Position numbers and translations under genes: made by a program. A DNA stretch of 31,416 bases from positions 891 through 32,306 of the forward strand of contig LUSA01000037.1 in assembly GCA_001629235.1 (NCBI GenBank), read 5' to 3'. The stretch comes from Marine group II euryarchaeote REDSEA-S43_B8. Lineage in GTDB: Archaea > Thermoplasmatota > Poseidoniia > Poseidoniales > Thalassarchaeaceae. Positions within the stretch are counted from its first letter, which is position 1. The number at the start of each line of letters is the position of its first letter. A model generated the notes under the pieces. The model was not told the DNA's origin and ran no database searches. It saw only the letters and a program-made list of their open reading frames with translations. Shown here in pieces: positions 26,992 through 31,416 of the stretch.

Positions 26992-27006
26992 CCGAACAAA
27001 GTTCGG
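26992..27006. promoter_or_regulatory. Perfect inverted repeat CCGAAC-AAA-GTTCGG immediately upstream of purC
   Basis: 6-bp dyad with a 3-nt spacer, 8 nt from the purC start, in the divergent purC/ABC intergenic region. Confidence 0.3.
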
Positions 27007-27095
27007 ACATCAATATTGCCCAATGAGCCTCTGTGTCAAATTTTTTCTTAGTAGACTAGACTAAATCCTCACAGCCCAGCGAGAGGGCGGGTATT

Positions 27096-29371
27096 GTGGC
27101 ATCGGAAGCGTCTCTCTGGAATGGCCCCAAGGGCAAGCGTAGTGCAGATTTACTGATCGCATTCGTACTAGTTGCCCTTCTTTTCTCATTTGGAGAAGTT
27201 TCTGCTCAAGAGGTTAGGAGTGGGTGGGAAGTAGTCGATAGCGGGACTGAGGAGAATCTGTATACTGCAGAGTACCTAGAGGGAGAGATATGGGCATTCG
27301 GATCTGGAGGAACCATGATCAGGAGTATCGATGAAGGAAGAACTTGGTCTGAATCTGGAATATCAGTAAGCCAAGATCTCACTTCTTCAGATTCGAGTTA
27401 CGAATCTATAATCGTGGCAGGAAATAGAGGTACTGTCCTATTGATGAATGAAGGCGTCTGGATGGATGTAAGTTCTGATCAATTTGGAGATATCAAGGAC
27501 GTTGCCCTTACTGGGAATGATAGTTTTGTTGTCATTGAGCAAGATGAAGTCTGGACTTGCACAGTGACAGTGGAATGGGATACTGAATGCGATTCGGCAA
27601 ATGAAGGAGGGGGGATAAATTATCTCAGTGTATCATTCTTGGATTCAGAAAACGGAATTATTTCTGGAGAGAACGGGGCAATAATTGCATCCTCTGATGG
27701 AGGCAGTAGCTGGGAGTATAGAGATGCGCCTAGCGAGGTTTCAACGAAGGCAATTATCGATGTTGAATACTACAGTACGATTAGGGCGTACGCGATCTCA
27801 GAAGAAGGGCACATTCTGAAGTCATCGAGAGAAGGAAATGTTCCCGTGGGATTCGTCTGGAGCATAGTGGATATCGAAAGAGAATACCCCCCAGGAGGTG
27901 GTGATGAGTTCGAATCTGGAGGTTCGAATCTGGACTTCGAAGTATCTGGGATGAAGGTTCTTGGACAATTCAAGTTCATGATTTCTGGTCCGGGAGGTTA
28001 CCTCTCCCTCAGTCTGGACGGGGGGAATATAGTCTCTCAGCAAATGATTCCAGTCTCGAACGAGACTGTGTTCAATGGATTTGCTATGCTGGACGGTTTC
28101 AGAGGGGTCGCCGTAGGGGATGGAGGAGTTTTACTCAGGACAGAGAACGCGGGATCGGAGGAGTTCGTCGGATTCGAGGTGATTGACTTCAACGATTTCG
28201 GACAATTCATCGACTACTCTAAGGAGAGATTGATGGATGGGCTTGTAGCGACTGCAAAGATCGTGATTTTTGGAATTCTAATGGGTTTCTCTCTAGGAAT
28301 AGTCCTTTCAATGCTAAAGACATCTCCAACTACACTCAAGAATGTGGCTCAGACCAATAGATTCCAGATTCTATTGATGTTCGTAGTTACGCCATTATGG
28401 TTATCTTTCCAGATTCCTATCTCAGCGATTAACTCAACTGGATTGGGTAGAAAATTGAATCTGAGCAATCCTTTCAGCAGCGTATTAGGTTACTGTAGAG
28501 GGAGATCCTTACACATTGCAGCAAGTGAGCCACTGAACATTATCGCTATTCGTACAATAGGATTAATTCTGATATTTTTCGGGATTTATCGGATTCTCAG
28601 TAATCTCGATGATATCAGAGACCTAAACCTAGATGGTTGGGAACACATCTACTCGCCTATCGGGGCTCCTGGGGCGATGTTCTGGATTCTACTGGGTCTT
28701 GGAATAGCGATATTGGGAGGCATATTTTTGTCATGCAATGGGGACTTCTCCATACGAGAAATTGAGTTCAGCAAGGTGAGTTTCTCTCTCGATCCATGGG
28801 GAATCAGGCCATTGAACACGATTGCAACGGTATACACGGACATTTTCAGAAACACGCCATTGCTCGTTCAGTTCATGTTCATACACTTCGGATTCGAGCT
28901 TGGAAGAAGATTGCAGGACCCTGGGCTAATGTTGTTCGACTTCGATTACCTAGTGGGCAACTCAAACTTCATCACCGATATTTTCGTAGTTTACGAGACG
29001 AATCCCGAATCGCTAGCCTACGGTAGGCCGATTGGGGGGATTCTTGAGGATAGGGCATACATTGTATTGGGCTAAATTACATGCAATCGATGAGGCTGGT
29101 GGTAATGCCCCAGGCTGTCAGAATCTGCATACCCCCACTAGGTAACGAGATGGTCAACCTAGTACTGAACTCTTCACTAGCTATGATTATCGGTTATGCT
29201 GAAATCACAAGGCAGGGGAAGTTAATCGTCGCGACTACTTTCCAGGTTTTCTGGACTTGGGGAATGGTACTGATCTCATACTTCCTGATTACATGGACCC
29301 TAGCACTCTTCCTCAGGTACCTTGAGGAAAGGACTAGGATTCCTGGGTTAGGAATATCAGGAGGTGCTTGA
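27096..29371 (+). CDS. Polar amino acid ABC transporter permease (HisM/GlnP family) fused to an N-terminal YCF48/BNR beta-propeller; frame break and missing segment at about 29063
   Basis: Signal peptide, Asp-box motifs SIDEGRTW and SSDGGSSW, and permease motifs GLVATAKIVIFG, YTDIFRNTPLLVQ. After the break the protein continues (S)IGLNYMQSMRLVVMPQAVRICIPPLGNEMVNLVLNSSLAMIIGYAEITRQG. Confidence 0.85.
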
Positions 29372-30078
29372 TTGTCAGAAATTATCCTCAGCGTTGAAGA
29401 GATGGAGAAGACGTATGTTGGAGGGGTCCATGCGGTCAGAGGAGTCTCGTTCGAAGTGAAGGAGGGGGAGTCATTGGCTATTATTGGCTCATCTGGGAGT
29501 GGCAAATCTACCGTACTTAGGTGTATCAACCGCCTGATTGAGCCCACTCAAGGTATCGTGAGGTTGAAGGGAGAAAGGATCAACACGCCTGCTGCTGATG
29601 TTAATGATGTTCGCTCTAGGATAGGGATGGTCTTCCAGTCTTTCGAGTTATTCTCTCACTTGAGGGTGATTGACAATGTTTCCCTTGGGCTAATTCATGT
29701 CAGGGGAATGAGTAAGGAGGATGCTTTTGACCATGCTCGCAGTGTTCTTGAGAGGGTAGACATGCTCGATAGGGTTGATGCCTATCCCGGAAACCTATCT
29801 GGTGGTCAGAAGCAGAGGGTGGCTATCGCAAGGGCACTTGCGATGAAGCCTGAGGTCATGCTGTTTGACGAGCCCACTAGTGCCCTAGACCCAGAACTAA
29901 TCGGCTCCGTTCTTGAGCCATGGTAGTGGTCACCCATGAGATAGGATTCGCCAGAGACGTTGCTGATCGTGTGATATACATGGATCGGGGCCTTATTGCA
30001 GAGGAGGGGGAATCATCCATAATCGATAATCCGAAAACGGACAGGATGAGAGATTTCCTCTCTAGCATCAATGACTGA
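29372..30078 (+). CDS. Polar amino acid ABC transporter ATP-binding protein (GlnQ-like); frame break at about 29918
   Basis: Walker A GSSGSGKST, Q-loop GMVFQSFELF, signature LSGGQKQRVAIARALAM, Walker B LFDEPTSALDPE. The C-terminus MVVVTHEIGFARDVADRVIYMD..FLSSIND resumes in another frame at 29920 and stops at 30078. Confidence 0.92.
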
Positions 30079-30080
30079 AT

Positions 30081-31416
30081 CTAGCAAACTGACACGGCTT
30101 CCCATATGTCGTTCGAATTGCTGGTACTGTAATCGTAGTACGAGGTGTCTGATATCTGCGATTCTCCTTGTGTGACGGTTACTGTGAACGAATAGCACCC
30201 ATAGTCACCAGCGGAGTCGAACTCGTCACGAGGGACGTACTTTCCGAAGGTTGCATCGAAGACAGATCCTTCCATCGCGAATTCTGATCCGTATTCCCCC
30301 CAAGTTCCTGATCCAGTTCCGAAGATCCCCCCCTCGGAGTCCCATGATGCTTCTGTGTTGCTTACCGAGATTGTTGGATAGGCTATTGCCACATCATTCC
30401 CTTCCATGAGAACGGCCTCTACAGTGTAGTCGGCGAAGGGCATCCTTGCAGGCTTATCTGCACCGGTGTCGAGTCCAGACCAACCTGACATGACTACTCC
30501 AACCAGGCAGTTATCTGCATCGCCACTGCACCGGTCTGGATCCTCCTTGACAACTCCAGATGCCAGGCCGTCAACTCCTGTGATATCCCTTGAGAGGGCG
30601 TCTGCTCCCGTCCACTGGGTTGTATCCCAAGTAATCTGGCTGTAAGTTAGGTCTCTGGTTGAACTATCCCCGTCTATGGTCAGCTCCAATGTGTAAGGGG
30701 AGTCTGGAAGGGCATTCGTGGAATAGAAATCTTCGACTAATATGGTGATCTCCCCCTCTCCCTTCCCGCTGTCTATGGAGAAGTTTGCAGTAGATGACCA
30801 AACTTGCTGCCCAGCCTGAAGGATGACTATGGAAGCCTCCATGTCCCTGTCTGAGATAGTGTTCTGGAGGACCTTGATGGTGATAGACTCGCCATCCTCG
30901 CTGTACTCAACCTGCCCAACCGAAAGTTCGCCCTCTAGCAAGGCACCTAGAATCAGCGGAAGAATTAGCATCATTATGTAGGAGATTGCGACTATGGATG
31001 CTGCTAAAGCGCTGGTTCCCGTTACAGCGAAACCAGAACTGGAAATGGAGAATACCCGTAATCTCCACATCACAACGGATAGAGAAAGTAGGAATACGAA
31101 TGACATGACCAACGATGCCCCGATCACGGGGATAGTTAGTTCGTCGCCCGGGAGATACACAAGAAGAATACGTGTGAGGAAAACTGGCAGAATTCCGAAC
31201 AATGCTACTGTCTTGAGTGCTTCAACCGGTCCTGCTGCCTCTGGAATTGGTCCTTCTTCCTCTTTTCCTGAGTCTTCAGGAATAACGGCAACTGGAGTTG
31301 GGCTTTGACTTTGCTCGGCAGCCTTCTCTAGAAGTCCTGCTGATTTGCTAGCAGCGGCTACCTCGTCGACGTATTCGCCGACCTTGGCACCCGTAATCGG
31401 GTCTATGCGTTCTGAC
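30081..31416 (-). CDS. Membrane protein (5'-partial) with about 3 TM helices and an acidic extracellular C-terminal domain
   Basis: The frame of ORF 30081..31202 stays open to the window edge (SERIDPITGAKVGEYVDE...). Three hydrophobic segments are followed by an Asp/Gly/Ser/Thr-rich domain with Cys residues. Confidence 0.8.
   Translation of the reverse strand, partial: SERIDPITGAKVGEYVDEVAAASKSAGLLEKAAEQSQSPTPVAVIPEDSGKEEEGPIPEAAGPVEALKTVALFGILPVFLTRILLVYLPGDELTIPVIGASLVMSFVFLLSLSVVMWRLRVFSISSSGFAVTGTSALAASIVAISYIMMLILPLILGALLEGELSVGQVEYSEDGESITIKVLQNTISDRDMEASIVILQAGQQVWSSTANFSIDSGKGEGEITILVEDFYSTNALPDSPYTLELTIDGDSSTRDLTYSQITWDTTQWTGADALSRDITGVDGLASGVVKEDPDRCSGDADNCLVGVVMSGWSGLDTGADKPARMPFADYTVEAVLMEGNDVAIAYPTISVSNTEASWDSEGGIFGTGSGTWGEYGSEFAMEGSVFDATFGKYVPRDEFDSAGDYGCYSFTVTVTQGESQISDTSYYDYSTSNSNDIWEAVSVC

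What the first reader, a model, noticed from the sequence alone, without database searches (positions are those of the whole stretch)
27096..30078. Polar amino acid ABC transporter whose permease carries a YCF48/BNR beta-propeller instead of a solute-binding domain
Seen: a signal peptide, then about 330 aa of repeated blades (GSGGTMIRSIDEGRTW, GNRGTVL, GENGAIIASSDGGSSW, SEEGHILKS, GPGGYLSLSLDGG, GDGGVLLRT), fused in frame to a HisM/GlnP-type permease and followed by a GlnQ-type ATPase. The unit is bounded by a divergent and a convergent gene, so no binding-protein gene is in the operon. Knowledge: type I importers need a substrate-binding protein, and known fusions (for example lactococcal GlnP) use Venus-flytrap domains, not Asp-box propellers. 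Inference: the propeller may capture substrate or peptides, or scaffold surface proteases or an orphan binding protein at the transporter. This would be an architecture I have not seen described.
Basis: partly seen in the sequence, partly recalled or inferred. Interest (0 to 1): 0.78.

Follow-up and report, generated by a model that had tools for sequence, protein, structure and literature searches.

The report
Propeller-fused archaeal amino-acid ABC permease
A marine planktonic archaeon (Marine Group IIb) has an amino-acid ABC importer whose membrane subunit carries an outward-facing seven-bladed propeller; relatives pair the same fusion with an ordinary binding protein, so the propeller looks like an unexplained add-on and not a replacement receptor, and this window's copy carries two frame-breaking deletions that other data sets do not show.

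Summary
The architecture is real. A cleavable signal peptide and a Ycf48-like seven-bladed BNR propeller are fused to an ArtQ/GlnP-type permease, followed by a GlnQ-type ATPase. It is conserved under purifying selection in six genera of Thalassarchaeaceae, in MGIII, and on Heimdallarchaeota-labelled contigs.

The window's copy is broken. It lacks 103 bp in the permease (removing the EAA loop) and 31 bp in the ATPase. Near-identical contigs from three DNA studies and one RNA library carry both stretches, so the breaks are probably an assembly artefact or a rare allele.

The reading "propeller instead of a binding protein" is not supported. At least nine related loci encode a classical membrane-anchored family-3 binding protein beside the same fusion, and adjacency appears ancestral. 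This genus lost that linked gene. It keeps a related binding domain fused to a LivK-type lipoprotein on another contig.

The propeller's role remains unknown. I found no paper describing the fusion. This scan has already followed up the same fusion in at least seven other genomes with the same conclusion.

Verdict: a new variant of a known kind, of moderate interest.

The parts
27008..27023 (.). Invariant intergenic motif CATCAATATTGCCCAA, about 30 nt upstream of the divergent purC start. Likely the BRE/TATA element of purC.
   Evidence: Invariant in 11 loci of the genus although the flanks diverge. The promoter role is inferred from its position.
27056..27070 (+). Invariant motif CTAGACTAAATCCTC, about 30 nt upstream of the GTG start of the fusion gene. 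Likely its TATA/BRE promoter element.
   Evidence: Invariant or nearly so in 11 loci. The role is inferred.
27096..27206 (+). Start codon (GTG) and N-terminal signal peptide, residues 1-37, with predicted cleavage after VSA.
   Evidence: Hydrophobic segment at residues 19-37. A37 and Q38 are invariant in 25 homologues.
27207..28175 (+). Extracytoplasmic seven-bladed Ycf48-like BNR beta-propeller, residues 38 to about 360.
   Evidence: Pfam PSII_BNR. AF2 pLDDT 80-92. Foldseek best hits are Ycf48 structures, TM-score by target 0.71-0.78. dN/dS 0.08-0.19.
28176..28325 (+). Invariant linker (DFNDFGQFVDYSK) and permease TM1.
   Evidence: Invariant columns D364-K376. TM segment at residues 389-407.
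28326..28790 (+). Lineage-specific membrane insertion after TM1, with three to four extra hydrophobic helices. It is absent from the minimal MGIII-type forms.
   Evidence: Alignment A2 and hydropathy scan. The minimal form has a beta-hairpin at this position.
28791..29063 (+). Permease core, first part (YTDIFRNTPLLVQF and onward), in frame up to residue 656.
   Evidence: TIGR01726 and GlnP matches at residues 568-600. Collinear with homologues up to 29063.
29063..29064 (+). Junction where 103 bp are missing. The missing stretch encodes SAIFALGLNSGAYQCETIRGAIAAIPSGQMEAGRS, which includes the start of the EAA loop. The deletion shifts the frame.
   Evidence: blastn against L002-L005. Contigs of runs X1, X2 and X15 carry 103 letters between these positions.
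29064..29371 (+). Permease C-terminal part (rest of the EAA loop and the last TM helices), now in another frame. The ORF is 29081-29371.
   Evidence: GlnP profile positions 134-218 (E 1.5e-18). PF00528.
29372..29917 (+). GlnQ-type ABC ATPase, N-terminal 182 codons, with Walker A, signature motif and Walker B.
   Evidence: NF007027 GlnQ E 2.5e-58. PF00005.
29917..29918 (+). Junction where 31 bp (ACCATACAGGGTTTGGCTGAGGAAGGGATGA) are missing. The deletion shifts the frame before the H-loop.
   Evidence: The same 31 letters are present in contigs of runs X1, X2 and X5 (table 5c).
29918..30078 (+). ATPase C-terminal part (VVVTHEIGFARDVADRV...), in another frame. Stop codon at 30076-30078.
   Evidence: Frame translation. 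Collinear with the 245-aa ATPase of L002.

Best explanation
The locus encodes a lineage-specific variant of a polar-amino-acid (PAAT, Art(QN)2/GlnPQ-like) type I ABC importer. It has one permease gene and one ATPase gene, so the translocator is presumably a TMD2-NBD2 homodimer.

Each permease subunit carries a secreted seven-bladed Ycf48-like propeller. A short invariant linker holds it directly before TM1, at the position where Lactococcus GlnP carries its binding domains (recalled).

The propeller is an ancient add-on to a system that depends on a binding protein. It is not a replacement receptor. The ancestral cassette was a membrane-anchored family-3 binding protein, the propeller-permease and the ATPase. 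This genus (Ca. Thalassarchaeum-type MGIIb) lost the linked binding-protein gene.

Substrate delivery here is inferred to come in trans from another family-3 binding domain. The best candidate is the circularly permuted SBP_bac_3 domain fused to a LivK-type lipoprotein on contig C75.

What the propeller does is not shown. By analogy with Ycf48, it may dock on the outer face of the membrane complex or hold a partner such as a binding protein, a peptide or a surface enzyme.

The two frame-breaking deletions in this window are most likely an assembly artefact or a rare allele. The natural gene is intact and appears in RNA libraries.
For: Family assignment:
- Pfam and NCBIfam matches.
- P0001 residues 560-792 match ArtQ of 4YMS at E 3.8e-31.
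- In the model of the minimal form (mean pLDDT 88.6), the membrane domain superposes on ArtQ (TM-score by target 0.87, 34% identity) and the propeller on Ycf48 (0.73-0.78).

Conservation:
- 167 homologues at E <= 0.001, 120 listed, full length about 792 aa.
- Found in 21 of 24 genomes drawn from the genus.
- Found in six of 13 genera of the family, 62 of 67 genomes in those six, and 0 of 53 in the other seven.
- dN/dS is 0.08-0.19 for the propeller and 0.01-0.08 for the permease core.

Binding protein beside the fusion:
- L036, L037 and L038.
- L052, L059, L060 and L065, from named Poseidoniales and MGIII MAGs.
- L144, a Heimdallarchaeota-labelled contig, and L145, a 1.13-Mb contig.
- In the tree, all minimal forms are binding-protein-adjacent, and L038 nests beside this genus.
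- The cis-type binding protein is found in genera g17, g16 and g9. In g1 there was only one weak match, which falls on the LivK-fusion gene.

Trans candidate:
- The C75 lipoprotein domain is 45-52% identical to the cis binding protein of L037. AapJ is only 24% identical.
- AapJ has its own AapQMP operon.

Deletions:
- define them.
- Contigs with 0-1 mismatches in the flanks carry the 103 and 31 letters in three DNA studies and one RNA library. None shows the deleted form.
Against: - The propeller's role is untested. The complex prediction gave no verdict.
- The C75 binding domain is also present, at 81-83% identity, in genomes that keep the cis binding protein. In relatives it heads the Liv operon. 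It is therefore not simply the relocated cognate partner.
- Its co-distribution with the fusion in the same six genera may reflect shared ancestry alone.
- Several MGIIb lineages keep the propeller-permease under strong constraint without any linked binding protein. This would also fit a receptor role for the propeller.
- Contigs cannot exclude a rare deleted allele, and the source sample of this MAG may be among the runs laid.
Confidence: 0.6

Rival explanations
1. The propeller is itself the substrate (or peptide) receptor. It replaces the Venus-flytrap binding protein, at least in lineages such as this genus that have no linked binding-protein gene.
For: - There is no binding-protein gene in the operon in 11 loci of the genus.
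- The cis-type binding protein was not found in the genus.
- The propeller stays under purifying selection.
- It sits on a short invariant linker at the position where GlnP carries its binding domains (the GlnP layout is recalled).
- Ycf48 itself binds carboxylates and a peptide tail (PMC10403576).
Against: - The same fusion coexists with a classical adjacent binding protein in at least nine loci spanning MGIIb, MGIII and Heimdallarchaeota-labelled contigs.
- Adjacency is the inferred ancestral state.
- The genome retains family-3 binding domains.
- Only two or three basic residues are conserved in the propeller, so a Ycf48-style Arg patch is not evident.
Confidence: 0.15
2. The window shows a genuine pseudogenised operon. 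This population has inactivated the importer by two deletions.
For: There are two independent frame-breaking deletions in adjacent genes of one operon. One is flanked by a short GACCAT repeat, as real deletions often are.
Against: - Contigs identical or nearly identical in the flanks carry both missing stretches in runs from three DNA studies and one RNA library. No contig shows the deleted form.
- All other genus genomes searched have open frames of 790-826 aa.
- dN/dS of the window copy against relatives is low.
Confidence: 0.15
3. The system is no longer an amino-acid importer. The much-modified permease (large TM insertion plus propeller) has been co-opted, for example as a surface sensor or scaffold for extracellular proteases, or for another substrate class.
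For: - A large, lineage-variable membrane insertion follows TM1, with 0 to more than 7 extra helices.
- A Peptidase_S8 gene lies downstream in L036.
- A convergent membrane protein with an ectodomain is a conserved neighbour in part of MGIIb.
Against: - The permease core, EAA loop and ATPase motifs are nearly invariant across lineages.
- The membrane domain is 34% identical to ArtQ, with TM-score by target 0.87.
- The cis binding proteins keep typical amino-acid-binding-family matches, SBP_bac_3 and Lig_chan-Glu_bd.
Confidence: 0.1

Closest known systems
Art(QN)2 with ArtI/ArtJ of Caldanaerobacter (Thermoanaerobacter) tengcongensis (PDB 4YMS-4YMW); E. coli GlnHPQ and HisQMP2 (PAAT family, TC 3.A.1.3)
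   Same: One permease gene plus one ATPase gene, implying a homodimeric translocator. The five-helix core, EAA loop and GlnQ-type ATPase are shared. Sequence match E 3.8e-31. Fold match TM-score by target 0.87 at 34% identity. Relatives also have a family-3 binding protein.
   Different: ArtQ has no ectodomain. Here a 330-aa propeller is fused before TM1, and MGIIb forms add three or more helices after TM1. The binding-protein gene is missing from this operon.
GlnPQ of Lactococcus lactis (and OpuA): importers with receptor domains fused to the permease
   Same: Signal peptide, then an extracytoplasmic domain, then a PAAT permease in one polypeptide, giving two ectodomains per transporter. The GlnPQ layout is recalled from memory.
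   Different: The fused domain is a beta-propeller, not a class II binding-protein fold. Relatives still encode a separate binding protein.
Ycf48/HCF136, photosystem II assembly factor
   Same: Seven-bladed BNR propeller on the extracytoplasmic side of a membrane. It is the best structural match and matches Pfam PSII_BNR above cut-off. Ycf48 docks on a membrane-protein surface and holds a peptide tail (PMC10403576).
   Different: 15-19% identity. Far below the NCBIfam Ycf48 cut-off (52.7 against 326 bits). No evident six-Arg patch. The host is a non-photosynthetic archaeon, and the domain is covalently fused to an ABC permease.
Accessory propeller proteins of ABC importer loci: AztD (zinc chaperone feeding the binding protein AztC) and PedA2 of pedA1A2BC
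   Same: This is a precedent for an extracytoplasmic accessory protein that works with a binding protein and does not replace it (AztD to AztC transfer, PMC7731109). PedA2 is annotated as a beta-propeller beside a binding protein (PMC12997753).
   Different: They are separate proteins of other transporter families. No homology was tested here. That AztD is a propeller is my recollection, not shown in the paper I read.

Membership tests
PAAT-family type I ABC importer permease (HisM/GlnP/ArtQ; PF00528, TIGR01726) | BPD_transp_1 membrane domain with an EAA coupling loop | tested here: met
   Intact homologues carry PF00528 at E 1e-13 to 1e-23 and the motif MEAGRSIGLNYMQSMRLVVMPQ. They match ArtQ of 4YMS at E 3.8e-31 and TM-score by target 0.87. 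In the window's own sequence, the 103-bp deletion removes the first half of the loop.
PAAT-family type I ABC importer permease (HisM/GlnP/ArtQ; PF00528, TIGR01726) | N-terminal three-helix signature (TIGR01726) above the curated cut-off | tested here: inconclusive
   40.8 bits against a cut-off of 42.2 for the window ORF, matched in two pieces because of the insertion after TM1.
PAAT-family type I ABC importer permease (HisM/GlnP/ArtQ; PF00528, TIGR01726) | Adjacent GlnQ/HisP-type ATPase | tested here: met
   NF007027 at E 2.5e-58 over 182 codons. The 245-aa intact form is present in relatives. The window copy is frameshifted.
PAAT-family type I ABC importer permease (HisM/GlnP/ArtQ; PF00528, TIGR01726) | Dedicated family-3 substrate-binding protein | tested here: not met
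   None in this operon or in the genus locus. It is met in related loci L036-L038, L052, L059, L060, L065, L144 and L145. Candidate domains exist in trans on contigs C75 and C18.
Ycf48/HCF136 photosystem II assembly factor | Seven-bladed propeller matching PSII_BNR | tested here: met
   Pfam 44.3 bits (cut-off 27). Foldseek E 1e-14 to 1e-15, TM-score by target 0.71-0.78.
Ycf48/HCF136 photosystem II assembly factor | Equivalog-level sequence match (NCBIfam NF010237) | tested here: not met
   52.7 bits against a cut-off of 326.
Ycf48/HCF136 photosystem II assembly factor | Conserved six-residue Arg patch that binds D1 (PMC10403576) | tested here: inconclusive
   Only R209, R230 and K293 are conserved or nearly so. 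The profile alignment to Ycf48 is out of blade register, so positions could not be equated.
Ycf48/HCF136 photosystem II assembly factor | Host has photosystem II | not tested
   Record titles name Thalassarchaeaceae, Poseidoniales and MGIII archaea. By general knowledge these are heterotrophs without PSII. I did not search the genome for psbA.
Receptor-fused ABC importers (GlnPQ/OpuA type) | The fused extracytoplasmic domain has the substrate-binding-protein (Venus-flytrap) fold | tested here: not met
   The domain is an all-beta propeller with pLDDT 80-98. No SBP_bac_3 match lies within the fusion.

The most novel reading that the evidence does not exclude
In lineages such as this genus that lost the linked binding-protein gene, the propeller is a working capture or docking module. 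Either it binds amino acids or peptide termini itself, or it recruits multi-domain surface lipoproteins such as the SBD-LivK fusion to the translocator. Either role would be a receptor principle not known for type I ABC importers.
Probability: 0.2. Interest if true: 0.8.

Novelty: new variant of a known kind. Interest (0 to 1): 0.4.

Why it matters
Marine Group IIb archaea are described in the papers I found as among the most abundant planktonic archaea, and amino-acid uptake genes are among their most transcribed (PMC9723583). A conserved, constrained ectodomain bolted onto the translocator of an otherwise textbook importer suggests an unknown step in substrate capture or in the organisation of the cell surface.

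If the propeller recruits binding proteins or captures ligands, it would extend the accepted receptor repertoire of type I ABC importers. If it is only structural, the finding is a curiosity of one archaeal lineage.

For annotation, the window shows that this MAG's copy should not be read as a pseudogene without checking reads.

Tried and rejected
- **Complex prediction.** I tested the propeller of P0166 with its cis-encoded binding protein P0271, using alignments A3 and A4. The result was no verdict (score 0.00). It is not evidence either way.
- **Full-length AF2 model of P0001.** With 25 sequences, the propeller was confident but the membrane domain was below pLDDT 50. I therefore took the membrane fold from the minimal form.
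- **Ycf48 Arg patch.** I tried to map it onto the propeller by profile alignment. The blades aligned out of register, so I abandoned this.
- **C75 binding domain as the relocated cognate partner.** It also occurs in genomes that keep the cis binding protein, and in relatives it heads the Liv operon. I downgraded it to a candidate only.
- **Genus-level co-distribution of the fusion and the C75 domain**. They share the same six genera, but these may form one clade, so I did not use this as evidence of coupling.
- **Convergent downstream membrane protein (30081-31415) as a hidden receptor.** It has no family match, its sequence looks all-beta, and its synteny is only partial. I did not pursue it.
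- **Palindrome CCGAACAAAGTTCGG at 26996-27010.** It is not conserved beyond the closest relatives.
- **Literature.** Searches for the fusion found nothing.
- **RNA contigs.** They cover part of the operon in run X15. Contigs from an RNA library do not prove transcription.
Full report
**What is in the window**

The + strand between 27096 and 30078 holds four open pieces, not two genes:
- a 659-codon ORF (27096-29075);
- a 96-codon ORF in another frame (29081-29371);
- a 184-codon ORF (29372-29926);
- a 52-codon continuation in a third frame (29920-30078).

The first ORF has a signal-type hydrophobic N-terminus. It matches Pfam PSII_BNR at 44.3 bits (cut-off 27) and matches the start of HisM/GlnP-type permeases. 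The second ORF is the C-terminal third of such a permease. The third is the first three quarters of a GlnQ-type ATPase.

These are divergent purC and a convergent membrane protein, with no binding-protein gene.

**The breaks**

I compared the window with four genomes of the same genus that are 93-95% identical in DNA. The window lacks 103 bp after 29063 and 31 bp after 29917.

The first deletion removes 34 codons, including the start of the EAA coupling loop. The second removes the segment between the Walker B/D-loop region and the H-loop. Both shift the frame.

I laid Logan contigs of four public runs on 28700-30150. Contigs of X1, X2 and the RNA library X15 carry 103 extra letters at the first junction; X5 contigs end there, with loose ends that read like that stretch. 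Contigs of X1, X2 and X5, from three different DNA studies, carry the same 31 letters at the second junction. The flanks differ by 0-1 letters. No contig shows the deleted form.

The breaks are therefore most likely an assembly or consensus artefact, or a rare allele. Contigs cannot exclude the latter. The intact products are 792-804 aa and 245 aa.

**Is the fusion real?**

Yes.
- A search of 5.8 billion proteins found 167 relatives at E <= 0.001. The 120 listed are mostly about 792 aa with PF14870 and PF00528 in one chain. They come from ENA, JGI, NCBI and TARA, and the named ones are Thalassarchaeaceae or Poseidoniales.
- 21 of 24 genomes drawn from the genus have it in one open frame.
- Across 121 genomes of the family, it is present in six genera (62 of 67 genomes). 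It was not found in seven others (0 of 53).
- Named MAGs place full-length copies in Ca. Thalassarchaeum, other Thalassarchaeaceae and MGIII.
- Two contigs labelled Heimdallarchaeota also carry it. These are short contigs of MAGs, so misbinning is possible.
- AlphaFold DB holds a 588-aa cluster representative of the same fusion under a generic name.
- dN/dS of the window copy against relatives is 0.08-0.19 for the propeller and 0.01-0.08 for the permease core.

**Anatomy**

Residues 1-37 form a signal peptide, with A37 and Q38 invariant.

Residues 38 to about 360 fold as a seven-bladed propeller. pLDDT is 80-92 in the MGIIb protein and 93-98 in the minimal form. The best solved matches are Ycf48 structures, with TM-score by target 0.71-0.78 at 15-19% identity.

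An invariant linker (DFNDFGQFVDYSK) leads straight into TM1.

In MGIIb proteins, a variable insertion of three or more hydrophobic helices follows TM1. The minimal 588-aa forms have a beta-hairpin there.

The rest is a canonical five-helix PAAT membrane domain. P0001 residues 560-792 match ArtQ of PDB 4YMS at E 3.8e-31. The minimal-form model superposes on ArtQ with TM-score by target 0.87 and 34% identity.

One permease gene and one ATPase gene imply a homodimeric translocator like Art(QN)2, with two propellers per complex. This stoichiometry is inferred.

**Does the propeller replace the binding protein?**

The comparative evidence says no. A classical SBP_bac_3 gene lies beside the same fusion in all of these loci:

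| Locus | Source | Position of the binding-protein gene |
|---|---|---|
| L036, L037 | metagenome contigs (L036 is Heimdallarchaeota-labelled) | directly upstream, divergent |
| L065 | MGIII MAG | directly upstream, divergent |
| L144 | Heimdallarchaeota-labelled contig | directly upstream, divergent |
| L145 | 1.13-Mb contig | convergent after the ATPase |
| L038, L052, L059, L060 | MGIIb | between purC and the fusion |

The two cis binding proteins I read in full, P0270 and P0271, have a signal peptide and a C-terminal hydrophobic anchor.

In a maximum-likelihood tree of 18 fusions, all minimal forms are binding-protein-adjacent. L038 nests beside the window's genus. Adjacency is thus the simplest ancestral state, and the linked gene was lost several times within MGIIb.

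The cis-type binding protein occurs in genera g17 (9/11), g16 (4/11) and g9 (3/12). In the window's genus it gives only one weak match, which falls on the LivK-fusion gene.

**Binding domains elsewhere in this genome**

PF00497 matches two genes.

- **AapJ-like lipoprotein on contig C18.** In relatives this heads a complete AapJQMP operon with unusually long permeases of 914 and 561 aa. It is only 24% identical to the cis binding protein of L037.
- **Lipoprotein on contig C75.** Residues 51-301 are 45-52% identical to that cis binding protein, but in circularly permuted order. A LivK-type domain follows.

The C75 domain is the best trans candidate, but the case is weak:
- In relatives the gene heads the Liv operon.
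- It also occurs, at 81-83% identity, in genomes that keep the cis binding protein.
- Its co-distribution with the fusion in the same six genera may only reflect shared ancestry.

A published metatranscriptome study reports that aapJ and livK are among the most transcribed Thalassarchaeaceae genes (PMC9723583). It does not mention the fusion.

**What the propeller might do**

This remains inference. Ycf48 docks by an Arg patch on the lumenal face of a membrane protein and holds a C-terminal peptide (PMC10403576).

Here only two or three basic residues are conserved. The blade register could not be fixed.

There are precedents for accessory proteins that cooperate with a binding protein and do not replace it. 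AztD feeds zinc to the binding protein AztC (PMC7731109). PedA2 is annotated as a propeller in an ABC locus (PMC12997753). A Ycf48-like BNR protein is cofit with an RND exporter in bacteria (bioRxiv 072470).

**Literature and earlier work of this scan**

Five full-text searches found no paper on a propeller-permease fusion.

After I had reached my reading (stated), the scan's own index showed at least seven earlier follow-ups of the same fusion in other genomes. They reached the same conclusion. What is particular to this window is the pair of deletions and the evidence that other data sets do not share them.

**Verdict**

This is a real, conserved and apparently undescribed variant of a familiar importer. 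The claim that the propeller substitutes for the binding protein is not supported, and the propeller's function is open. The window's copy is damaged, probably artefactually. Interest is moderate.

Noticed in passing
L013:1-2163 (- strand; G000 contig C75, outside the window): A lipoprotein with an LAGC lipobox joins a circularly permuted SBP_bac_3 domain (residues 51-196, then 199-301) to a LivK-type domain (residues 320-606). In genomes of the same genus it is the first gene of the Liv operon. It is conserved across six genera of the family.
   Followed up: partly
L035:2316-6742 (G009 contig C7): The AapQ- and AapM-like permeases of the genus are 914 and 561 aa. Only the last 130-150 residues match PF00528. 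One search also lists LivH/LivM matches inside single open frames of about 1,250 aa. Oversized ABC permeases therefore seem general in this lineage.
   Followed up: no
window 27008-27023 and 27056-27070: Two invariant motifs, CATCAATATTGCCCAA and CTAGACTAAATCCTC, lie in the 112-bp purC/fusion intergenic region. Each is about 30 nt upstream of one start codon. They are probably the two divergent archaeal promoters of near-leaderless transcripts.
   Followed up: partly
window 30081-31415 (- strand): A convergent gene encodes a multi-pass membrane protein with a C-terminal ectodomain of about 270 aa and no family match. It is a conserved neighbour in the genus and in the L039/L054/L063 clade. It shares a short motif, RIDP(I/V)TGxKVGE, with the N-terminal extension of the AapQ-like permease.
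   Followed up: partly
L144 (GCA_001940725.1) and L036 (GCA_021399405.1): The binding protein, propeller-permease and ATPase cassette sits on contigs of MAGs labelled Heimdallarchaeota. This is either transfer between archaeal phyla or misbinned MGIII-like contigs.
   Followed up: no
P0270, P0271 (L038:1791-2756, L037:98-1063): The cis-encoded binding proteins begin with what is normally the C-terminal helix of an SBP_bac_3 domain (ELLDALNxAL...YDxIYxKWF) and end in a C-terminal membrane anchor. They look circularly permuted, or derived from a tandem pair of binding domains.
   Followed up: no
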